Below, piece after piece: positions 2,363 through 54,072 of a stretch of DNA of 64,000 bases. The DNA lies in the NCBI GenBank assembly GCA_029932915.1, contig JAOZPE010000006.1, positions 6,384-70,383 of the forward strand, given 5' to 3'. This DNA comes from Candidatus Krumholzibacteriia bacterium. GTDB lineage: Bacteria; Krumholzibacteriota; Krumholzibacteriia; JAJRXK01. Numbering within the stretch: position 1 is the first letter of the stretch; each line of letters starts with the position of its first letter. A program made the position numbers and the translations under genes. The notes under the pieces are model-generated. The model was not told the origin of the DNA. It saw nothing but the letters and a program-made list of their open reading frames with translations, and ran no database searches.

Positions 2363-2392
2363 GTGGGGGGGGCCGGGGGGGCCCCCCCCCAC
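2363..2392 (+). terminator. G/C-run hairpin, likely terminator
   Basis: GT-G8-CC...GG-C9-AC inverted repeat about 20 nt after the stop at 2340. Confidence 0.5.
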
Positions 2393-46426: not shown

Positions 46427-47302
46427 ATGATCGATTCCGCTGCCGCTCCTCTTTCCGGTCGAGTGGTCCTGGTGACCGGTGCCAGCTCGGGCATCGGGCG
46501 TCTCGCGTCCCGCGAGTTGGCGCGCCGGGGTGCCCGGGTCACCCTTCTCGTGCGCGATCCGCAGAGGGGAGAGAGCACCCGTGCGTGGATTGAAGCCACG
46601 GGCGGTCTCGAATCACCGGAGATCCTGCTCTGCGATCTCTCCGATCTCGAACAGGTACACCGCGCGGCGGAGGAATTCCGCCGCCGTCACTCCCGACTCG
46701 ATGTCCTGGTGAACAATGCCGGAGTGTTGCAGCGTCGCCGGCGCCTCAGCTCCCAGGGCCATGAGTGGACCTTGGCGGTGAACCATCTCGGCCCCTTCCT
46801 GTTGACCCTCTCATTGGCCGATCTGATACCGTCCGGCGGGCGCATCGTCAACCTGGCCTCGGTGGCCCACACCCGCGGTCGATTCGACTTCGAGGACATG
46901 ACGCTCGAAGACGGTTATTCGATGTGGGACGCCTACGCGCGCTCGAAGCTGGCCAATGTTCTCTTCACCTACGAGCTGGCCCGCCGTCTCGCCCCCCGTC
47001 GCATCGACGTGAACGCCCTGCACCCGGGGACACTGCCGACCGGCATCGCCCGCGGACATTCGCGGGTGGCCTCGTGGCTGTGGAAGATCGTCACCCGTTT
47101 CTCCGGGCGGGTCGAGGAGGGAAGTGACGCAGTGGTGAGGCTGGCTGGCGATCCCGAACTCGAGGGAACCACCGGCCGCTACTTCTACAAGATGTCCAAG
47201 GCGGAGTCGTCACCGCAGAGCCACGACCGCCGCTTGCAGGCCGAGCTGTGGTCGTGGTCACTGAAGGCGGTGGGGCTGACCGAGGAATCCATGTTCTTGT
47301 GA
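46427..47302 (+). CDS. Short-chain dehydrogenase/reductase (retinol dehydrogenase-like)
   Basis: VTGASSGIG, LVNNAG, VNHLGPFLLT, YARSKLAN, LHPG. Confidence 0.92.
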   Translation: MIDSAAAPLSGRVVLVTGASSGIGRLASRELARRGARVTLLVRDPQRGESTRAWIEATGGLESPEILLCDLSDLEQVHRAAEEFRRRHSRLDVLVNNAGVLQRRRRLSSQGHEWTLAVNHLGPFLLTLSLADLIPSGGRIVNLASVAHTRGRFDFEDMTLEDGYSMWDAYARSKLANVLFTYELARRLAPRRIDVNALHPGTLPTGIARGHSRVASWLWKIVTRFSGRVEEGSDAVVRLAGDPELEGTTGRYFYKMSKAESSPQSHDRRLQAELWSWSLKAVGLTEESMFL

Positions 47303-47439
47303 ATGCACCAAGGTATTCTCAATGCGTACATTTTTGTGTGCTGGCCCAGAGTGCGGCCGTTTTCTGGAATACGTATCTGTTGCCGTATCACGTCAAGATC
47401 AAGATACAGACCGAGGAAGAGCCGGAGCTGCTTCCTCCA

Positions 47440-47480
47440 TTGACATGACTTGGCATTAGTTGTAGTTGTCCCAGTAGAAT
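47440..47480 (+). promoter_or_regulatory. Candidate sigma70 elements for the islet operon
   Basis: TTGACA at 47440-47445 and TAGAAT at 47475-47480. They are not at canonical spacing to each other, so the assignment is tentative. Confidence 0.3.
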
Positions 47481-47518
47481 TCAGTAGGTTTTCTCGCCTT
47501 CCACGCAGGAAGTACACG

Positions 47519-48150
47519 ATGAAAGCGAGAATCCTGAACCCCTTCCTTCCTTCCTTCCTTCCTTTGCCCAGCTGATCATCCTTGTAGGACTTTCCATAGT
47601 TCCGAGTCTTTCTGTGGCAAGCTGTACCACCTGTACAGCACGGGATGGACACGTCTACTGTACTGGTGGTTGCCAGGCGGAATTGTGCCAAACTACTGGC
47701 AACTCCTGCTTGTTTTCTGGATCAAGGGATTGTTGTGGTGGGGGCTGCTTCTTGGCCACTACGCGTATTCTCACTGCCAGAGGACTGATTCCGATTTTCG
47801 CGCTTCGCGAAGGTGACACGGTTCTTACACAAGATGAAGCAGGAATGTTGGTTGAGGCAAGAGTAACCCGCACATACAAATCCGTATCATTTGACGGATA
47901 CTACCGGATCAACGGCGACCTAGGTGTTACGGGAGAGCATCCATTCAAGGTGGGTGGGCGGTGGGTTCCGGCAAAGGATCTTCGAATCGGGGATGTGCTC
48001 ACTGCGTCAGATGGATCATCGGTGAGAATCAAATCTCTCATCAAGATCAACAAGGCGGTTCGGGTATATAACATCGACACCTCTGGGCCGAATACGTTCT
48101 GTGCTGGTGGCTTATTGGTTCATAACAAGGACGGACAGGTTCAGGGATGA
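47519..48150 (+). CDS. Frameshifted (putatively phase-variable) secreted Cys-rich peptide-Hint fusion
   Basis: As written, ATG 47519 stops at 47575 after 18 aa. With 4 or 7 CCTT units it reads MKARILNPFLPSF(LPSF)AQLIILVGLSIVPSLSVA-SCTTC...DCCGGG-CFLATT...VYNIDTSGPNTFCAGGLLVHN-KDGQVQG. Hint domain 47746-48126. Confidence 0.82.
47541..47564 (+). repeat. (CCTT)6 simple sequence repeat inside a signal-peptide coding region
   Basis: Six perfect CCTT units, 22 nt downstream of ATG 47519 (RBS AGGAAG). Confidence 0.92.
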
Positions 48151-48180
48151 TGAGCAAGAGCTTAGTCATCTCGTGAGCAG

Positions 48181-49233
48181 TTGGTAGACTTGGGTCTAAC
48201 GTCTGAAAGGAGTTGGCCATTGCGAGGCGTATCCATCACATGTCTGGCATTCATGTTGCTTTGGGCTATCCCGTCCGAAAGACCAGCGTTGGCATCGAGC
48301 TTCCCATCCATCGTGCTTGAGGAAGACATGGTGCTTGGCGATGAGGTTCGTGAGATGATAGGCGTCGTCTCAGGAGTTGTCGAAGATTCCAAACATTTCA
48401 TCTATATTGCCGACCTGGGCTTTCAACAGATCCAGAAGTATTCCCCAGAAGGTGAACTTGTCGATGTCTTCGGATCAGTTGGAGAGGGCCCAGGTGAGCT
48501 GATGTTTCCGTTCAGCATGACCATCAGTGGTCGTGATGAGCTGTATTTTGCTGGTCCAGGTGGTCGTGTGACCATCTGGACCACTGAGGGAGATTTTGTC
48601 AGGGAATTTCGCCGCCTTCATCCTGACGGAGACGCCAAGTCGATCCGCGTGGCAAGAGATGGAAAGATTTTCATTGCTGTTCTGGACATTTTGGAACAGA
48701 CGGTGATCGATGTGTATTCTTCGACGGGAGAGTACATCAACTCATTCGGGCATTCCTATGCTGTTGGTCGGGATGTTGATGCGCGAACGGAATCCTTCGT
48801 TGGAGGGGGCAGTTTGGATCTCATGTACAATGGGATGGTTGCATACACGCAGCAAGCTCCCTACCAAGTGGTTATCTTCAAGCCTACTGGAGAAAAGGTC
48901 TTCGAAAGCGTCGAAGGTGGCGAGGGTTTCGTTGAACTGCCTCCGGAGCCGGAGTATGGGAAGAAAACTTTCAGGATGGGTTTGACAAGCTCATCAGTGG
49001 AGATCACGTGTCTTGGCAATCGTTTGCTCAACTGCGCAATCCGTGGGATACAGGAACAGGAGAACAGAGAGACCCTATTGACACTCTATGATGATCACTT
49101 GAAGCTGTTGGCCCGCACGGTGTTGAAAGGTTTCAAGATTGTGGTTGGGAAGGATGCAGAGGGAAGAGTGTTCATCTTCTCGGAAGATGGTGACGTTCCA
49201 CAGGTGCGAAGAGCACGTTTGAGCGTGCAATAA
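48181..49233 (+). CDS. 6-bladed beta-propeller (NHL/TolB-like) exported protein
   Basis: Hydrophobic N-terminus; IYIADLGFQQIQKYSPEGELVDVFGSVGEGPGE; further ..G.F...F blade repeats. Start 48181 (TTG) or 48253 (ATG). Confidence 0.85.
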   Translation: MVDLGLTSERSWPLRGVSITCLAFMLLWAIPSERPALASSFPSIVLEEDMVLGDEVREMIGVVSGVVEDSKHFIYIADLGFQQIQKYSPEGELVDVFGSVGEGPGELMFPFSMTISGRDELYFAGPGGRVTIWTTEGDFVREFRRLHPDGDAKSIRVARDGKIFIAVLDILEQTVIDVYSSTGEYINSFGHSYAVGRDVDARTESFVGGGSLDLMYNGMVAYTQQAPYQVVIFKPTGEKVFESVEGGEGFVELPPEPEYGKKTFRMGLTSSSVEITCLGNRLLNCAIRGIQEQENRETLLTLYDDHLKLLARTVLKGFKIVVGKDAEGRVFIFSEDGDVPQVRRARLSVQ

Positions 49234-49339
49234 TTTGTGACCCCAGTGACCCGTCTGGCATCCTACGGCGGTCAATCGCCCCATTCATACATCACCATGG
49301 CATGGCGCCACTGCACAGCAAGCCAGCTAGCGTTTCACC

Positions 49340-50335
49340 TCAATACCGCGGCCGCGGAGCCGGCTTGTTCTGCAGGATGTCCTCGATGCGCTCCATCACC
49401 TCGTCATCGAGGCGATCGACCACCTCCAGCGCCTGGAGGTTCTCGTGCAACTGCTCGACCTTCGAGACGCCGAGGATCACCGTGCTCACCCGGGGGTTCT
49501 TCAGGCACCAGGCCAGGGCCAACTGCGACAGGCTCACGCCCAGATCCTCGGCCACCGGTTCCAGCGCGGCGGCGGTGGCGATCTTCCGACGGCCTTCGTC
49601 CGAGAGAATCTGCTTCTTCAGCCACTCGTAGTCGGGGAGGGTCATCCGCGAGCCCTCCGGAATACCGTTCTTGTACTTGCCGGTGAGGATGCCCGAGGCC
49701 AGCGGCGACCAGATGGTCGTTCCCAGTCCGACCGTCTCGTACAGATGGCGGTACTCAGCCTCGACGCGCTCGCGGTGCAACATGTTGTACTGGGGTTGTT
49801 CCATCACCGGCGGGGTGAGGCCCCACTCACGGGCCACCTTGTGCGCCTCCATGATCTCCACCGCGCTCCACTCGCTCGTCCCCCAGTAGAGCACCTTGCC
49901 CTGACGCACCAGGGTGTCCATGGCCCGGACGGTCTCCTCGATCGGGGTATCCGGGTCGGGGCGGTGGCAGAAGAAGAGGTCGAGGTAGTCCACCTGCAGG
50001 CGCCGCAACGCCGCGTGGCAGGCGTCGTGCAGGTGCTTGGCCGACAGTCCCTTCTGGGTCGGTCGGTCGCCGCCCCAGAAGGCCTTGGACGAGACGCAGT
50101 AGCTGTCGCGGGGCCAGCCCAGCTCCTTCAGGGCCCGGCCCATGATCTCCTCCGAGCGTCCCTCGGCGTAGACCTCGGCGTTGTCGAAGAAGTTCACTCC
50201 GGCTTCGTAGGCCTCCTGCATGCACTGCAGGGCCCGGCGGTCGTCGAGCTGGTAGTGGAAGGTCACCCATGAACCCAGCGAGAAGGCCGACAGTTTCAGC
50301 CCGCTTCGGCCCAGGCGGCGGTAGGGCATGTCCAT
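49340..50335 (-). CDS. Aldo/keto reductase (Kv-beta-like)
   Basis: YRRLGRSGLKLS.FSLGSW, FFDNAEVY, VSSKAFW, LRRLQVDYLDLFFCHRPD, YWGTSEW, EQPQYN, WSPLASGILTGKY. Confidence 0.92.
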   Translation of the reverse strand: MDMPYRRLGRSGLKLSAFSLGSWVTFHYQLDDRRALQCMQEAYEAGVNFFDNAEVYAEGRSEEIMGRALKELGWPRDSYCVSSKAFWGGDRPTQKGLSAKHLHDACHAALRRLQVDYLDLFFCHRPDPDTPIEETVRAMDTLVRQGKVLYWGTSEWSAVEIMEAHKVAREWGLTPPVMEQPQYNMLHRERVEAEYRHLYETVGLGTTIWSPLASGILTGKYKNGIPEGSRMTLPDYEWLKKQILSDEGRRKIATAAALEPVAEDLGVSLSQLALAWCLKNPRVSTVILGVSKVEQLHENLQALEVVDRLDDEVMERIEDILQNKPAPRPRY

Positions 50336-50420
50336 GTCCACACTCCGTGCAAGCGGGGGGAATCACAGGGAAATCGGCTCCACGGGGGGCTTTCCGCGGC
50401 CCCCGCCGGCCACAGCCTCA

Positions 50421-50450: not shown

Positions 50451-50562
50451 CCAGCCTGAAGCCGGTGGACATCCCTGAACTCTCGCCCGGTTTCCCGTCT
50501 CCGACGCGCTGTGGACGCGCCGAGATGGACCCTTGCTCCCAACACCCAAGGAAAGCGGCACC

Positions 50563-53500
50563 ATGCGATCGAACGGACGCCTCACGGGCCTGATCTGGTT
50601 GGCCCTCTTCTCCCTCGTTCTCCTTGCCCTGCCCCGCGCCGGATCCCTCCTGCATCCGGGCGTGGCCGAGTTGCGTGACCATGACGTGGAAGGATCGACC
50701 AAGGCCTTCGAGCCCGATGCCAGGTTCGAGGACCGGGATGCCCGGGAGGAAGAGGAGGCCGGGCAGGATGAGCCCGACGTCTTCGCCCGGATCCTCTATG
50801 ACATGAAGGTTCCCGCGGACCGGACGGCTCCGGAGTACCGTCCCGGCTACCAGCAGATCGAACTCTCCAAGGCCCGCGTCATCTCGACGAAGGCGGGAAC
50901 TCCGCTGAACTGGGTCGAGCGGGGACCGGGCAACGTGGCCGGCCGTGCGCGTGGACTGGTGGTCGATGTCTCCGACCCCACCGGCAACACGTGGTTCGTC
51001 GGTTCGGTCGGCGGCGGCATCTGGAAGACCTCCGATGCCGGCGCGACGTGGACGCGGGTGACCACGGATCCACAGAGCTACGCCACCTCGACCATCGTCC
51101 AGTGCAAGAACCATCCGGACGTGTTCTACGCGGGCACTGGTGAGAGCTTCTTCAACATCGACACGATGAACGGCAACGGCATGCTCAAGTCGGTCGATCA
51201 CGGTCTGAGCTGGACGCCGCTGGCCAGCACCCTGGACGATCCGCGCTTCAACAACATCGCCCGCATCCTCGTCGATCCCGACGATCCCGATGTGGTCATC
51301 GTCGCGGCCAACGTCGGGCGCTACAAGTTGGAGCTGGAGGACACCACCAACATCTTCAAGTCGACCGACGGGGGGGTGACCTGGACCGCGGCCTTCACCA
51401 GCAACGAGGCCGGAGGCTGGGGCCGTCCCAAGAAGGTGCAGGATCTCAAGGCCAACCCGCAGAACTTCAACACCTTGTACGCGGGCATGCAGGAGAAGGG
51501 CGTGCTCAAGTCGACCGATGCCGGGAGCACCTGGGTCGTGAGCAGCAACGGTATCACCGACCTTCCCGGCCGTTTCGAGATCGCCGTGTCGCCGGTCGAC
51601 ACCAACCGTATCTACGCTGCCGCCGAAGGCTCGTCGGGCGCCTCGAATCTGTGGGTCTCCACCGACGGCGGTGCCAACTGGGTGAAGACCACCGAGGCCA
51701 CCGGCAGCGAGCCCAACTGGCTAGGGGCGCAGGGCTGGTACGACAACACCATCGTGTGCCATCCAACCGACGTGGATATCGTCTACGTGGGTGGCATCCA
51801 GCTCTGGAAGATCACCATGGTATCAGCCAGCACGCGCGAGAGCGTGAAGCTGAACCAGCCCAACGTGCACGTGGACCATCACAACCTCGTCGTCCTGCCC
51901 GGAGACGGAGGGACGCCGTGGCGTCTGCTCAACGCCAACGACGGCGGCATCGCCTATTCGACGGATATGGACGACGGATGGCAGATGCCCATCCTGGGGC
52001 TGAACACCACCCAGTTCTACGGGGTGGACAAGAAGCCGGGTAGCAGCGCCTACATCGGAGGCATGCAGGACAACTCGACCTGGCGTTCCCCCGACGATCC
52101 GGACGAGTTGACCCCGTGGGTGTTCCAGATCGGCGGCGACGGCTACGAGACCTCCTGGCACTTCAACGACCCGATGCTCATCATCGGCGGCTATCAGTAC
52201 AACGGCCTGTTGCGCTCGACCGACAAGGGCGAGACCTGGGACTCGGCCACCAACGGCCTGGCCGACGTCGGCAGCAGCGCGGCGCCGTTCATCACCAAGA
52301 TCGGAAAGACCAACCTTGCCCCCGACCTGCTGTTTGCGGTCGGGAAGTCCGGCGTATGGCGCAGCGACAACTTCGGAGCGAGCTGGAGCCTGGCCAACAT
52401 GAACCCCAGCGGCAGCTGGTACTTCTCCTCGTTCATGGACGTGCGGGTCTCCCGGGCCGATCCGGACATCGTGTGGGCCGGCGCGCGCATGGACGCCAAC
52501 GGTTCCATCTTCGTGTCCACCGACGGCGGTCTGAACTTCAACGCCGTTCCCGACTACACGACGGTCACCATGGGTGGCATCAGCGGGATGGCCACCCACC
52601 CCACCGATTCGGACATCGCCTACGTGCTCTTCTCCTTCGCCGACCGGCCGAAGATCCTGCGCACCACCGATCGTGGGCAACACTGGGAGGACATCACTGG
52701 CTTCGCGGGCGGCGGCCCGTCGACCAACGGCTTCCCCGACGTGGCGGTGTACGATCTTCTGGTGATGCCGCATGACCCGAACATCCTGTGGGCGGGTACG
52801 GAGATCGGCCTCTTCGAGTCGACCGACAACGGAGCCTCGTGGCACCTGGCCGACAACGGTCTGCCCAACGTGGGGATCTGGATGATGACCCACGTCGAGG
52901 ACGAGGTGGTCATCGCCACCCACGGTCTGGGGATCTGGACGGTGAGGATTCCCGAGATGATCGTCGGGGAGACCTTCACCCCGCTCATCGAGGCGCTCTA
53001 CCAGAGCCCGGCCGGCGAGCTGAACATCGAGACCACCCTGCGCAGTGCCTACGACTCGACCCGGGTGATGATGAATGGAGCGGTGGCGGAGGTCCTGCCC
53101 GCCAATACGGCGGGGGACACGCCTCTCGTCCAGCTCCCGGTGCTGTTCAACGGGACGGCCGAGATCCAGCTCGTCGGTTACGTCGGCGGCAGCACCTACG
53201 AGTCACCGCTGAAGAGCGTCGAGGTGATCCAGATCAGCGAGCCGGTCTTCAGCTACCAGAGTGACTTCAACGGTGGCAACGGCGACTTCACCGGAGACGG
53301 GTTCTCCGTCCGTCTCGAGCCGGGCTTCGATGACGAGGCCATCCACAGCCAGCACAACTATCCGGACAACTCCAGCCCCACCTACACCCTGACCAAACCC
53401 ATCCGGGTGGCCAAGGCAGATGCCATGGTGGAGTTCGACGAGGTGGTGATCGTCGAGCCTGGCGATGCGGGGACCGTCTTCGGTGACTTCGGGTTCTGGG

Positions 53501-54072
53501 ACTACGTGATCACCGAGGGAACCAAGGACGGCACCCACTGGGTGCCCCTGCTCGACGGCTACGACTGCCGCGATGACAACGCGTGGCTCGTCGCCTACAA
53601 CAACGGCGATGCCGGCGACGCTTCCCTGTATCGCCACCGCAGCTTCGATCTGCTGGACACCTTCGATTGGGGCGACACCATCCTCGTGCGCTTCCGCCTG
53701 TACGCCGATCAGTCGGTGAACGCCTGGGGTTGGGCCATCGACAACCTGTCGATCCAGGTGGGGAGCCCGACCTCGGTCGGGGACGCTCCGCAGCGGATCT
53801 TCGCTCTGGATCAGAACTACCCGAATCCCTTCAATCCCAGCACCACGATCGCCTACAGTCTGCCCGCGCGCAGCAAGGTGAGCCTGTGCATCTACGACCA
53901 GAAGGGGCGTCTGGTGCGTACCCTGGTCGATGAGGAGCAGCCCGCCGGCGCGAGGGCCGTGGTATGGGACGGACGAGCGGGCAACGGAGTGCCCGTGGCC
54001 AGCGGCGTGTACTTCTATCGTCTGAAGGCGGGCGATCTCGTCCAGCAGAAGAAGATGACGCTGGTGAAGTAG
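50563..54072 (+). CDS. Large secreted BNR/Asp-box (VPS10/sortilin-like) beta-propeller protein with C-terminal FlgD Ig-like domain
   Basis: WVERGPGNVAGR; many S/TxDxGxTW Asp-boxes (TSDAGATW, SVDHGLSW, STDGGVTW, STDAGSTW, STDKGETW, SDNFGASW, TTDRGQHW, STDNGASW); C-terminus QNYPNPFNP...VWDGR...VASGVYFYRL...KKMTLVK. Confidence 0.88.
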   Translation: MRSNGRLTGLIWLALFSLVLLALPRAGSLLHPGVAELRDHDVEGSTKAFEPDARFEDRDAREEEEAGQDEPDVFARILYDMKVPADRTAPEYRPGYQQIELSKARVISTKAGTPLNWVERGPGNVAGRARGLVVDVSDPTGNTWFVGSVGGGIWKTSDAGATWTRVTTDPQSYATSTIVQCKNHPDVFYAGTGESFFNIDTMNGNGMLKSVDHGLSWTPLASTLDDPRFNNIARILVDPDDPDVVIVAANVGRYKLELEDTTNIFKSTDGGVTWTAAFTSNEAGGWGRPKKVQDLKANPQNFNTLYAGMQEKGVLKSTDAGSTWVVSSNGITDLPGRFEIAVSPVDTNRIYAAAEGSSGASNLWVSTDGGANWVKTTEATGSEPNWLGAQGWYDNTIVCHPTDVDIVYVGGIQLWKITMVSASTRESVKLNQPNVHVDHHNLVVLPGDGGTPWRLLNANDGGIAYSTDMDDGWQMPILGLNTTQFYGVDKKPGSSAYIGGMQDNSTWRSPDDPDELTPWVFQIGGDGYETSWHFNDPMLIIGGYQYNGLLRSTDKGETWDSATNGLADVGSSAAPFITKIGKTNLAPDLLFAVGKSGVWRSDNFGASWSLANMNPSGSWYFSSFMDVRVSRADPDIVWAGARMDANGSIFVSTDGGLNFNAVPDYTTVTMGGISGMATHPTDSDIAYVLFSFADRPKILRTTDRGQHWEDITGFAGGGPSTNGFPDVAVYDLLVMPHDPNILWAGTEIGLFESTDNGASWHLADNGLPNVGIWMMTHVEDEVVIATHGLGIWTVRIPEMIVGETFTPLIEALYQSPAGELNIETTLRSAYDSTRVMMNGAVAEVLPANTAGDTPLVQLPVLFNGTAEIQLVGYVGGSTYESPLKSVEVIQISEPVFSYQSDFNGGNGDFTGDGFSVRLEPGFDDEAIHSQHNYPDNSSPTYTLTKPIRVAKADAMVEFDEVVIVEPGDAGTVFGDFGFWDYVITEGTKDGTHWVPLLDGYDCRDDNAWLVAYNNGDAGDASLYRHRSFDLLDTFDWGDTILVRFRLYADQSVNAWGWAIDNLSIQVGSPTSVGDAPQRIFALDQNYPNPFNPSTTIAYSLPARSKVSLCIYDQKGRLVRTLVDEEQPAGARAVVWDGRAGNGVPVASGVYFYRLKAGDLVQQKKMTLVK

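What the first reader, a model, noticed from the sequence alone, without database searches (positions are those of the whole stretch)
47620..48150. 42-aa, 8-Cys peptide fused to a self-cleaving Hint domain: a possible new class of autoprocessed disulfide-rich bacterial peptide
Seen: mature region SCTTCTARDGHVYCTGGCQAELCQTTGNSCLFSGSRDCCGGG (8 Cys, so up to 4 disulfides), then a compact 127-aa Hint domain (N-terminal CF at 47746, TGEHPF block B, VYNI...LLVHN C-terminus), then only KDGQVQG. Established: Hint domains form a thioester at the residue before Cys1 and cleave at the terminal Asn. The +1 residue is Lys, not Cys/Ser/Thr, so canonical splicing is not expected, as in BIL and Hedgehog-type Hints. 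Unlike polymorphic toxins, the cargo is N-terminal and tiny. Inference: Hint activates the peptide's C-terminal Gly as a thioester for hydrolytic release, cyclisation, amidation or ligation to a lipid or protein, giving a one-gene RiPP-like maturation route for a defensin/knottin-like signal or antimicrobial.
Basis: partly seen in the sequence, partly recalled or inferred. Interest (0 to 1): 0.85.

Follow-up and report, generated by a model that had tools for sequence, protein, structure and literature searches.

The report
Self-cleaving precursor of cysteine-rich peptide
This is a currently switched-off copy of an undescribed gene family from sediment bacteria: a tiny secreted disulfide-rich peptide fused to an intein-like self-cutting domain, always next to a propeller-shaped partner gene, an arrangement that recalls how Hedgehog is released and how some ubiquitin-like proteins are attached; nothing about it has been tested at the bench.

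Summary
ORF 47614..48150 encodes a 42-aa, 8-Cys stretch, a 127-aa Hint domain (Pfam PT-HINT above its cut-off) and the tail KDGQVQG. The true start is ATG 47519. At six copies, a (CCTT)6 repeat in the signal-peptide region puts that start out of frame, so this allele is OFF.

It is not a one-off. About 57 distinct ~200-aa proteins share the build:
- a Sec signal peptide;
- a 35-53-aa module with six invariant Cys;
- a Gly run;
- a Hint domain with Cys1, TxxH and His-Asn conserved;
- an invariant Lys at +1 and a 6-8-aa Pro-rich tail.

All carry the name "hypothetical protein", and I found no paper on them. The Hint is closest to A-type bacterial intein-like domains (2LWY, Tetrahymena BIL2).

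It is not a one-gene system. A secreted NHL-type six-bladed propeller gene lies adjacent in every family locus with enough flank (about 11 independent loci) and in none of about 70 other Hint loci. The pair forms a low-GC, mobile cassette.

Most likely the Hint turns the peptide's C-terminal Gly into a thioester after export and releases or ligates the peptide. Cleavage, the fate of the thioester and the biological role are untested.

Verdict: new variant of a known kind, interest about 0.65.

The parts
47303..49300 (.). Low-GC island (about 51% against about 65% in the flanks). It holds exactly the two-gene cassette, between the short-chain dehydrogenase gene (46427..47302, +) and the aldo-keto-reductase-like gene (49340..50341, -).
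   Evidence: Composition profile. Neighbour identities. The closest related cassette (L091/L092) is also 51% GC, lies between 55-64% GC flanks and sits in a different genomic context.
47342..47369 (+). Terminator-like hairpin plus T-run after the upstream dehydrogenase gene. It marks the likely left limit of the cassette's own transcription unit.
   Evidence: Consensus scan only.
47507..47512 (+). Shine-Dalgarno-like AGGAAG, 6 nt before ATG 47519.
   Evidence: Read directly from the sequence. There is no such site before GTG 47614.
47519..47575 (+). True 5' end of the precursor gene: start codon and signal-peptide n-region (MKARILNPFLPSFL...). In the present frame it stops after 18 codons.
   Evidence: Translation. 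The intact homologue P0002 begins MKSRNTSFLPSFL.
47541..47564 (+). (CCTT)6 tetranucleotide repeat inside the signal-peptide coding region. It puts the start codon out of frame with the rest of the gene, so it is a candidate phase-variation switch.
   Evidence: Tandem Repeats Finder: 6.0 copies, 100% match. It is the only tetranucleotide repeat of 5 or more copies in the 64 kb. The 65%-identical homologue has (TTCC)5 at the same place and is in frame, in four assemblies. In runs X3 and X4 the contigs break exactly here.
47566..47619 (+). Signal-peptide hydrophobic core and cleavage region (AQLIILVGLSIVPSLSVA), in the frame of the Hint ORF.
   Evidence: Translation. Kyte-Doolittle maximum 3.2; 51 of 52 full-length family members show the same signal-peptide features.
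47620..47745 (+). Cys-rich module, 42 aa, 8 Cys, ending in Gly-Gly-Gly. It is the predicted N-extein or cargo.
   Evidence: Six Cys are invariant in the family. Cys counts are 6 in 43, 8 in 10 and odd in 4 of 57. The two extra Cys here (C18, C39) are both absent in the closest homologues. No known domain matches.
47746..48126 (+). Hint domain of A-type BIL / PT-HINT type, 127 aa, from Cys1 to the terminal His-Asn.
   Evidence: Pfam. Best PDB sequence hit 2LWY, E=4e-27. Foldseek: 6Y75/6TMM BIL2 and 2LWY, TM 0.75-0.81 on the target. pLDDT above 90. Catalytic residues conserved.
48127..48150 (+). C-terminal tail KDGQVQG plus stop codon. Lys(+1) is invariant.
   Evidence: Tail statistics. Lys(+1) is also found at 295 of 354 Hint ends elsewhere in the clade.
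48206..48212 (+). Shine-Dalgarno-like AAAGGAG, 7 nt before TTG 48220.
   Evidence: Read directly from the sequence.
48220..49233 (+). Partner gene: a secreted NHL-type six-bladed beta-propeller, 337 aa from TTG 48220. The longest ORF starts at 48181; a gene caller chose ATG 48253.
   Evidence: 25-30% identical, E=1e-29 to 4e-36, to the neighbours of family members in other loci. These homologues hit Pfam DUF5128/NHL and, well below its cut-off, NCBIfam ScyF-NHL. AF2 pLDDT 81.7; Foldseek matches the NHL domains of TRIM2/3/71 and Brat. All 13 homologues have signal peptides. The closest homologues, P0260 and P0261, are also 337 aa.
49213..49238 (+). Terminator-like hairpin overlapping the end of the propeller gene. 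It marks the likely right limit of the cassette.
   Evidence: Consensus scan only.

Best explanation
The finding is one half of a horizontally acquired two-gene cassette that this population carries switched off. Gene 1 encodes a Sec-exported precursor: signal peptide, a 42-aa module with 8 Cys (probably 4 disulfides), Gly-Gly-Gly, an A-type bacterial-intein-like (PT-HINT) domain, then Lys and a 6-aa tail. Gene 2 encodes a secreted NHL-type six-bladed propeller.

Proposed mechanism (all steps inferred):
1. When the repeat is in frame, the precursor is exported, the signal peptide is removed at or just before the first Cys, and the small module is oxidised.
2. Hint Cys43 performs an N-to-S acyl shift at Gly42-Cys43, so the module's C-terminal Gly becomes a thioester.
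3. Asn169 cyclises and cuts off the tail.
4. The thioester is resolved by water (free peptide) or by an amine (ligated peptide). Either way a small disulfide-rich protein is detached from the Hint domain without any separate protease or ATP.

The propeller is its obligatory partner: a binding partner, acceptor, processing factor or immunity protein. The cassette is mobile, has paralogous expansions and carries a frame-shifting repeat. On that basis I place its role at the cell surface or in dealings with other microbes, not in housekeeping.

Shown: the architecture, the conservation, the gene pairing, the OFF state and the similarity to BIL domains. Inferred: every chemical step and the biological role.
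For: Domain calls:
- Hint domain above the Pfam cut-off.
- Closest solved relatives are BIL domains, which are known to cleave or splice without a +1 nucleophile. 2LWY at E=4e-27. BIL2 6Y75 and 2LWY are the top Foldseek hits. Background from PMC7664689 and PMC7765530.
- Among the residues needed for thioester formation and Asn cyclisation, Cys1, the block-B His and the terminal Asn are invariant and the block-B Thr and penultimate His nearly so, across 42 members at about 35-40% identity.

The N-terminal module:
- Residue -1 is Gly, preceded by a Gly run.
- It has six invariant Cys and an even Cys count in 53 of 57.
- Signal peptides are present in 51 of 52 members.
- A plausible signal-peptidase site lies 0-2 residues before the first Cys in 46 of 56.

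The cassette:
- The propeller gene is adjacent on the same strand in the window, L004 (twice), L005, L008, L011-L014, L020, L091 and L093. It is absent from about 70 loci that carry other Hint proteins.
- All propellers have signal peptides.
- The cassette is low-GC in two different genomic contexts and lies next to transposase genes in a third.

The switch:
- The repeat is conserved in the homologue with a different copy number and frame.
- The ORF is otherwise intact.
Against: - There is no experimental or expression evidence. No RNA run was found.
- Both assemblies that span the repeat, from two different studies, carry the same OFF allele. No in-frame allele of this exact gene was seen, so a recent pseudogene is not excluded.
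- The Cys-rich module is modelled only at pLDDT 46-57, so its fold and disulfide pattern are unknown.
- Lys(+1) is common to the wider Hint clade, so it says little about this family in particular.
- Hint Cys1 must stay reduced in an oxidising compartment. That is plausible by analogy with Hedgehog, but it is an assumption.
- The propeller has no invariant Lys or Cys that would mark it as an acceptor, and its fold matches interaction scaffolds more than enzymes.
Confidence: 0.6

Rival explanations
1. BIL-type ligation in cis. The Hint does not simply release the peptide but joins it to its own tail. One route is aminolysis by the alpha-amine freed at Lys(+1) after Asn cyclisation. The other is an isopeptide bond to the Lys epsilon-amine, as reported for Tetrahymena BIL2. 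The product would be a peptide of about 49 aa ending ...GGG-K-DGQVQG.
For: - The tail is constrained in length and composition: 6-8 aa in 51 of 57; in the 7-mers Lys1 100%, Pro3 72%, Pro5 66%, Gly7 69%. That is hard to explain if it is discarded.
- Lys(+1) is invariant.
- The best structural match, BIL2, forms a Lys-epsilon isopeptide by an ATP-independent splicing-like reaction (PMC8616854, section 2.4).
Against: - BIL domains give predominantly cleaved products (PMC7664689).
- Lys(+1) is also present in tandem-Hint proteins and in toxin-bearing Hint proteins of the same clade. It may therefore serve the C-terminal cleavage chemistry and not act as an acceptor.
- The tail may be needed only for folding or for Asn cyclisation.
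Confidence: 0.15
2. Ligation in trans or onto itself. The Gly thioester is captured by another amine or thiol. One acceptor would be a Lys on the propeller or on an envelope component, giving a ubiquitin-like, ATP-free covalent tag. The other would be the module's own N-terminus, which lies at or next to a Cys, giving a backbone-cyclised disulfide-rich peptide.
For: - The Gly-Gly-Gly end followed by a Hint mirrors the ubiquitin-like-GG-BIL arrangement. [quoted passage not shown]
- The propeller gene is strictly co-located, and both products are exported.
- The mature N-terminus is predicted 0-2 residues from the first Cys in 46 of 56 members. A flexible Gly run of 2-6 residues precedes the thioester.
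Against: - No invariant Lys, Cys or Ser is seen on the propeller.
- The first Cys is one of six invariant Cys that probably all sit in disulfides.
- The signal-peptidase sites are crude predictions biased toward short distances.
- There is no structural model of the module good enough to judge whether its two ends are close.
Confidence: 0.12
3. This copy is simply dead. The frameshift at the repeat is a fixed inactivating mutation or an assembly artefact, not a reversible switch, and nothing is made from this locus.
For: - The same six-copy allele is found in two runs from different studies.
- No in-frame allele was found in two metagenome scans.
- A second family member (L012) is frameshifted at a non-repeat site, and L020 looks degenerate.
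- Six copies is short for a hypermutable tetranucleotide tract.
Against: - The remaining 208 codons in the Hint frame are open, which is unlikely for an old pseudogene.
- The repeat is conserved at the same codons in a 65%-identical homologue that is in frame.
- It is the only such repeat in 64 kb.
- In two further runs the contigs break exactly at the repeat, as happens when reads disagree on its length.
- This rival concerns only the state of this allele. It does not affect what the family is.
Confidence: 0.25
4. Stripped-down polymorphic-toxin module. As in PT-HINT toxins, the Hint exists to release whatever lies C-terminal to it, and the Cys-rich part is only an anchoring or trafficking domain. 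Alternatively the Hint is a non-catalytic structural domain and nothing is cleaved.
For: - The Pfam family is PT-HINT.
- Relatives in the same search carry C-terminal toxin-like extensions after VHNK.
- NHL propellers and PT-HINT domains co-occur in teneurin-like and Rhs-type toxins (my own knowledge; a lead only).
Against: - Only 5-10 residues follow the Lys in all 57 members, so there is no toxin domain.
- PADLOC has no hit.
- Cys1 and the block-B His, which serve N-terminal thioester formation, are invariant (block-B Thr nearly so), as is the C-terminal Asn. That argues against both C-terminal-only cleavage and a purely structural role.
Confidence: 0.06

Closest known systems
A-type bacterial intein-like (BIL) domains / Pfam PT-HINT (e.g. 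Clostridium thermocellum BIL, PDB 2LWY)
   Same: Best sequence match among solved structures (E=4e-27). Same fold (TM 0.81 on the target). Cys1, TxxH and a C-terminal His-Asn, with no Cys/Ser/Thr at +1. Found in secreted, variable bacterial proteins. Known to cleave at either end, and able to splice in engineered contexts (PMC7664689, PMC7765530).
   Different: Described BILs sit inside large proteins or ahead of toxin domains. Here the Hint makes up two thirds of a ~200-aa protein whose only other parts are a 42-aa Cys-rich module and a 7-aa tail, and it comes with a dedicated propeller gene.
Tetrahymena BUBL locus: ubiquitin-like domains flanked by BIL domains (BIL2, PDB 6Y75/6TMM)
   Same: Top structural match. 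A small domain ending in Gly residues lies directly before the Hint Cys1. BIL2 transfers that domain to a Lys epsilon-amine without ATP (PMC8616854). That is a worked precedent for a Hint-made Gly thioester being used for conjugation, not hydrolysis.
   Different: BUBL is eukaryotic and cytosolic, and its cargo is ubiquitin-like. Here the cargo is a secreted, disulfide-rich module with no similarity to ubiquitin, and the only C-extein is a 7-aa tail.
Hedgehog / Hog proteins
   Same: Same logic of architecture: signal peptide, N-terminal cargo, then a Hint at the C-terminus that forms a thioester at a Gly-Cys junction in the secretory pathway and hands the cargo to a nucleophile.
   Different: There is no sterol-recognition region after the Hint, only 7 aa. 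Pfam Hint (PF01079) scores below its cut-off (14.7 against 29.7 bits). Unlike Hog domains, this Hint keeps the terminal His-Asn. The cargo is 42 aa against about 170 aa. Hedgehog 1AT0 is only a distant Foldseek hit (rank 50).
Polymorphic toxins with a pre-toxin HINT domain (Rhs/CdiA/MafB-type)
   Same: Same Pfam family of Hint. Secreted, mobile and variable. Lys at +1 is shared.
   Different: There is no C-terminal toxin domain and no large N-terminal delivery domain. The variable cargo lies on the N-terminal side.
Ribosomally made disulfide-rich peptides (knottins, cyclotides, defensin-like peptides, RiPPs)
   Same: Small, secreted, 6-8 Cys, matured from a larger precursor.
   Different: There is no sequence match to any such family, and no RiPP-type modifying enzyme lies in the cassette. 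The release machinery is a fused Hint domain, which to my knowledge has not been described for natural bacterial peptides; my literature searches found nothing.

Membership tests
Hint (Hedgehog/intein) superfamily | Nucleophilic Cys/Ser as first residue of the domain | tested here: met
   Cys43 of the mature numbering (47746); invariant in 42 of 42 aligned members.
Hint (Hedgehog/intein) superfamily | Block B Thr-x-x-His | tested here: met
   VTGEHPF in the window. His is invariant and Thr is present in at least 90% of members.
Hint (Hedgehog/intein) superfamily | Hint fold | tested here: met
   AF2 pLDDT above 90 over the domain. Foldseek probability 1.0 to BIL domains and many inteins, TM 0.7-0.85 on the target.
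Hint (Hedgehog/intein) superfamily | Autocatalytic cleavage at the N-terminal junction | not testable with these tools
   Needs expression and mass spectrometry.
A-type BIL / Pfam PT-HINT | Match to the family model above its curated cut-off | tested here: met
   PF07591: 48.5 bits against a cut-off of 27.7, covering profile positions 2-136 of 137.
A-type BIL / Pfam PT-HINT | C-terminal His-Asn, with no Cys/Ser/Thr at +1 | tested here: met
   LLVHN followed by Lys. Lys is invariant in the family and present at 83% of Hint ends in the wider clade.
Canonical (class 1) intein | Cys/Ser/Thr at +1, and insertion inside a conserved host protein whose two halves are joined | tested here: not met
   +1 is Lys. 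The flanks are a 42-aa Cys-rich module and a 7-aa tail. NCBIfam intein N-terminal model scores below its cut-off (15.7 against 24.5 bits). There is no homing endonuclease: the domain is only 127 aa.
Hedgehog/Hog autoprocessing domain | Sterol-recognition region after the Hint, and a match to Pfam Hint PF01079 | tested here: not met
   Only 7 residues follow the Hint. PF01079 scores 14.7 bits against a cut-off of 29.7.
Polymorphic toxin with pre-toxin HINT | Toxin domain C-terminal to the Hint | tested here: not met
   The tail after the terminal His-Asn is 6-11 aa (invariant Lys plus 5-10) in all 57 members.
Polymorphic toxin with pre-toxin HINT | Cognate immunity gene immediately downstream | tested here: inconclusive
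   A conserved neighbour exists, but it is a secreted 337-aa propeller that lies upstream in some loci and downstream in others. That is not typical of immunity proteins. No PADLOC hit.
RiPP (ribosomally synthesised, post-translationally modified peptide) | Leader/core precursor with dedicated modifying enzymes in the cluster | tested here: not met
   The cassette holds only the precursor and the propeller. The flanking genes differ between loci.
Knottin / cyclotide / defensin-like peptides | Characteristic cystine connectivity and fold | not testable with these tools
   AF2 confidence for the module is 46-57. There is no significant sequence match: best PDB hit E=0.13; sporadic EGF hits in 1 of 38 members.
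Phase-variable (contingency) gene | Simple-sequence repeat in the 5' coding region whose length sets the reading frame | tested here: met
   (CCTT)6 lies between the start codon and the signal-peptide core, and the frame is broken at six copies.
Phase-variable (contingency) gene | Repeat length varies within a population | tested here: inconclusive
   Orthologous repeats differ (5 copies in frame, 6 copies out of frame). Contigs break at the repeat in 2 of 4 runs. Only assembled contigs were available, not raw reads, and two metagenome scans found no other allele.
NHL-repeat six-bladed beta-propeller (partner gene) | Six-bladed propeller fold with NHL-type repeats | tested here: met
   AF2 pLDDT 81.7 with about 24 strands. 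Foldseek matches TRIM2/3/71, Brat and Thin NHL domains at E about 1e-11, TM 0.72-0.76. Homologues hit Pfam NHL/DUF5128. The window protein itself has no Pfam hit.

The most novel reading that the evidence does not exclude
The Hint-made Gly thioester is not hydrolysed but captured, which would make this a natural bacterial protein-ligation device working outside the cytoplasm without ATP. There are two versions:
1. A ubiquitin-like covalent tag. The disulfide-rich module is transferred to a Lys, either its own Lys(+1) tail, the NHL propeller or an envelope component, as Tetrahymena BIL2 does with a ubiquitin-like domain.
2. Intramolecular capture by the module's own N-terminal Cys or amine. That would give a backbone-cyclised, cystine-rich peptide, a natural counterpart of intein-based peptide cyclisation.

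In both versions the propeller would act as acceptor, adaptor or reverse enzyme, and the whole system would be switched on and off by a repeat.
Probability: 0.27. Interest if true: 0.85.

Novelty: new variant of a known kind. Interest (0 to 1): 0.65.

Why it matters
Hint domains are known from three settings: inteins, Hedgehog, and bacterial BIL or pre-toxin modules inside large proteins. This would be a fourth. It is a widespread family with dozens of sequence clusters in Latescibacterota, Krumholzibacteriota, Eisenbacteria and Fibrobacterota. In it the Hint is the maturation engine for a very small secreted disulfide-rich protein and is genetically tied to a secreted NHL propeller.

If the chemistry is as predicted, three things follow:
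- It is a bacterial analogue of Hedgehog-type or BUBL-type processing.
- It is a protease-free and ATP-free route to a peptide C-terminal thioester in the periplasm.
- It is a possible natural source of self-releasing or self-ligating peptide scaffolds for protein engineering.

It also gives a testable function to a set of 'hypothetical proteins' in candidate phyla that have no cultured members.

Tried and rejected
- Lipoprotein reading. The window has V-A-S-C, which fits a lipobox, but the residues before the first Cys in the family (e.g. NAQ-C, DNN-C, MTY-C, GGP-C) do not. I rejected it in favour of signal peptidase I.
- Zinc ribbon instead of disulfides. The 6-Cys members have only one CxxC and the proteins are exported, so this is unlikely.
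- Known Cys-rich domain. A profile search of the PDB and a Pfam scan of 38 modules gave nothing significant.
- Defence-system component. No PADLOC hit for either protein.
- NCBIfam name for either protein. Nothing above cut-off.
- Searching related loci with the full family alignments. A sub-alignment worked.
- Other repeat-length alleles. Two metagenome pattern scans found nothing. Only assembled contigs, not raw reads, were available for the window's runs.
- RNA evidence. No run was listed.
- Terminal repeats or target-site duplications around the island. None convincing. DNA similarity to the related cassette is confined to the coding regions.
- Literature on the family, DUF5128, NVEALA or BF3164. 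Nothing relevant. The 2004 JBC paper on BIL splicing without a +1 nucleophile is not held, so that mechanism is cited only through reviews and from memory.
Full report
**1. What is in the sequence**

- SCTTCTARDGHVYCTGGCQAELCQTTGNSCLFSGSRDCCGGG, 42 aa with 8 Cys, at 47620..47745;
- a 127-aa Hint domain from Cys-Phe at 47746 to LLVHN ending at 48126;
- KDGQVQG and a stop codon.

Pfam gives PT-HINT at E=1.4e-12 (48.5 bits, cut-off 27.7) and Hint_2 at 3e-8. AlphaFold2, run on a 26-sequence alignment, models the Hint part at pLDDT above 90 and the Cys-rich part at only 46-57.

**2. The gene is longer than the ORF, and it is switched off**

GTG 47614 has no ribosome-binding site and would give a protein without a signal peptide. 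Ninety-five bases upstream, ATG 47519 follows an AGGAAG (47507..47512) and encodes MKARILNPFLPSFL....

The 65%-identical homologue P0002 (204 aa) begins MKSRNTSFLPSFL... and runs on through a hydrophobic core into ...ATA-SCTTC. In the window the two parts are in different frames. Between them lies (CCTT)6 at 47541..47564, and the ATG frame stops after 18 codons.

- In the Hint frame, the codons just after the repeat read AQLIILVGLSIVPSLSVA-SC, a normal signal-peptide core and cleavage region.
- One unit more or two fewer would join the frames.
- P0002 carries (TTCC)5 at the same codons and is in frame in four assemblies.
- (CCTT)6 is the only tetranucleotide repeat of five or more copies in the 64 kb.
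- Contigs from two runs of different studies carry the same six copies. In two further runs the contigs break exactly at the repeat.
- I could not obtain raw reads. Two metagenome pattern scans for other alleles were empty.

The evidence fits a repeat-controlled switch that is OFF here. Length variation within a population has not been shown.

**3. It belongs to a sizeable, unnamed family**

An exhaustive HMMER search found 11,276 Hint-containing proteins at E of 0.001 or better. Among the best 150, about 45 are proteins of 193-215 aa that align from the first Cys to the last residue. A profile search added more. Across 57 distinct sequences the build is constant:
- **Signal peptide:** Sec-type features in 51 of 52 full-length members.
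- **Cleavage site:** a plausible signal-peptidase site 0-2 residues before the first Cys in 46 of 56. This is a crude rule that is biased toward short distances.
- **Cys-rich module:** 35-53 aa with six invariant Cys, spaced C-x2-C-x7-9-C-x8-10-C-x5-7-C-x5-7-C. The count is 6 Cys in 43 members, 8 in 10 and odd in only 4.
- **Junction:** a run of Gly, then Cys-Phe of the Hint.
- **Hint residues:** block-B His invariant and Thr nearly so; penultimate His nearly invariant and terminal Asn invariant.
- **Tail:** an invariant Lys, with a total tail length of 6-8 residues in 51 of 57 (7 in 32). The 7-mer consensus is K-P-P-D-P-x-G.

The window's two extra Cys (C18, C39) are both missing from its closest relatives, as expected if they form a fourth disulfide with each other.

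The module matches no Pfam family and no PDB sequence at a meaningful level. Every name that a source database gives for family members is 'hypothetical protein'. NCBIfam has no model above cut-off. Four literature searches found nothing on this architecture.

Members that carry an organism label come from MAGs of Candidatus Latescibacterota, Krumholzibacteriia/-ota, Candidatus Eisenbacteria and Fibrobacteraceae. The runs that hold the window's sequence are hydrothermal-vent and marine-sediment metagenomes.

**4. What kind of Hint it is**

- By fold, the best matches are the BIL2 domain of the Tetrahymena BUBL locus (6Y75/6TMM) and 2LWY. Mini-inteins follow, and Hedgehog 1AT0 is far down the list.
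- BIL domains lack a +1 nucleophile and give mainly N- and C-terminal cleavage products (PMC7664689, PMC7765530).
- BIL2 is reported to catalyse a splicing-like reaction that ends in a Lys-epsilon isopeptide bond. It acts as an ATP-independent 'single-ubiquitin-dispensing platform' (PMC8616854, section 2.4).
- Lys at +1 is not special to the Cys-rich family. It follows 295 of 354 Hint ends in other proteins of the same clade.

**5. It is not a one-gene system**

The next ORF is best started at TTG 48220, which follows AAAGGAG and gives 337 aa, the same length as its closest homologues. It encodes a secreted protein with no Pfam hit of its own.

- It is 25-30% identical (E=1e-29 to 4e-36) to the genes that flank family members elsewhere.
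- Those homologues hit Pfam DUF5128/NHL and, well below its cut-off, the NHL-type ScyF model of NCBIfam.
- AlphaFold2 gives a propeller at pLDDT 81.7. Foldseek places it with the NHL domains of TRIM2/3/71, Brat and Thin (TM 0.72-0.76). A Bacteroides DUF4221 protein and peptidyl-alpha-hydroxyglycine lyase rank lower.
- A tblastn of this protein against all 89 loci then held found a homologue next to the Hint gene, on the same strand, in the window, L004 (one on each side), L005-7, L008-9, L011, L012, L013, L014 and L020. It found none in the roughly 70 loci that carry other kinds of Hint protein.
- The closest cassettes (L091/92, L093/94) show the same pair.
- Gene order varies: the propeller lies upstream in some loci and downstream in others. 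That argues for functional coupling over mere operon inheritance.
- All 13 propellers have signal peptides.
- Their invariant residues are mostly Gly and Pro of the repeat, plus a D-x-R-x-E...GG-x-x-D motif in a loop that the model leaves disordered. There is no invariant Lys or Cys.

**6. The pair is a mobile cassette**

In the window the two genes form a 51% GC island in a 65% GC genome, bounded by terminator-like hairpins. The P0002-type cassette is likewise 51% GC between 55-64% GC flanks, in a different neighbourhood. Another cassette lies beside transposase genes. Some loci have two precursor genes or two propeller genes. One locus has a propeller gene alone.

**7. Most likely mechanism**

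Shown: the architecture, the conservation and the pairing. Everything below is inferred from established Hint chemistry.
1. With the repeat in frame, the precursor is exported by Sec and trimmed to begin at or next to the first Cys. Its small module is oxidised.
2. Hint Cys43, helped by the block-B Thr and His, shifts the Gly42-Cys43 peptide bond to a thioester.
3. Asn169, helped by the penultimate His, cyclises and cuts before Lys170.
4. The thioester is resolved, and the Cys-rich module leaves the Hint.

The residues for both reactions are invariant or nearly so, so I think both junctions are used. I cannot decide the resolving nucleophile. It could be water (simple release, my default), the tail's Lys or its new alpha-amine (cis-ligation), a Lys elsewhere such as on the propeller or the envelope, or the module's own N-terminus (cyclisation).

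The constrained tail argues that it is more than waste. The BIL2 precedent shows that a Hint of this type can hand a Gly-terminated domain to a Lys.

The biological role is open. Mobility, paralogy, a frame-shifting repeat and export of both products point to the cell surface or to interactions with other microbes.

**8. Rivals**

- This allele may be a recent pseudogene and not a phase-OFF variant. That affects the locus, not the family.
- A polymorphic-toxin reading fails for lack of any toxin domain.
- A purely structural Hint is unlikely given the conserved catalytic residues.
- Canonical intein, Hedgehog-type and RiPP memberships each fail a defining test (see the membership table).

**9. 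Verdict**

I rate it a new variant of a known kind: a known autoprocessing domain in an undescribed, widespread architecture with a dedicated partner. It is interesting mainly because it is a directly testable candidate for Hedgehog-like or ubiquitin-like Hint chemistry in the bacterial periplasm.

Noticed in passing
Proteins P0003-P0009, P0012, P0032; locus L069 3611..5872: A second undescribed architecture in the same Hint clade. After a signal peptide ending in ARGGGG come 2-5 Hint domains set head to tail, with junctions VHN-K-G(1-3)-CF. Then follow a Gly-rich stretch, one transmembrane helix and a C-terminal region with a sub-threshold Tim44-like hit (29.3 bits against a cut-off of 80). 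If each Hint cut at both ends, little but free Hint domains and K-G-G peptides would remain.
   Followed up: no
L012 3868..4468 (Candidatus Krumholzibacteriia MAG): The family member here is frameshifted inside its first CxxC, with one base missing and no repeat at the site. The signal peptide and the rest of the protein are in different frames. It is either an assembly error at about 6x coverage or a second inactivated copy.
   Followed up: partly
L008 4644..6936 and L009: Two paralogous Cys-rich-Hint genes (201 and 206 aa) lie in tandem after one propeller gene. They are followed by a gene for a PDZ plus thioredoxin-like protein, a possible disulfide-handling helper.
   Followed up: no
L093 2462..3667 and L094 2154..4438: Transposase genes (Transposase_mut; IS21-type rve plus IstB) lie directly beside the cassette, which fits its mobility.
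   Followed up: no
L090 5001..6014: A propeller gene 55% identical to the window's stands alone, with no Hint gene or remnant within 5 kb.
   Followed up: partly
window 47529..47573, in runs X3 and X4: Assembled contigs of two runs stop on either side of the (CCTT) repeat, while two other runs read through it with six copies. This suggests disagreement between reads at the repeat, but low depth (2.5-6x) could also cause it.
   Followed up: partly
window 47922, 47924, 48140: Variants between runs. 47922 A>G is synonymous. 47924 G>A would change Gly to Asp just before block B. 48140 T>C would change the tail from KDGQVQG to KDGQAQG.
   Followed up: no
window 48220..49233, residues 179-200 of the propeller: The most conserved non-glycine residues of the propeller family (D187, R189, E191, G196-G197, D200) lie in a loop that AlphaFold2 models at pLDDT below 50. 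This is a candidate binding or active-site loop.
   Followed up: no
window 50533..54072 (+): A 1179-aa secreted protein ending in a sequence that looks like a T9SS-type / FlgD-Ig-like C-terminal sorting domain (read by eye from the translation; no domain search run). Related loci L005-L007 carry proteins with a FlgD_ig Pfam hit. This would fit an FCB-group host for the window.
   Followed up: no
window 2382..2390: A C9 homopolymer, the only other simple-sequence tract that my scan flagged in the window.
   Followed up: no
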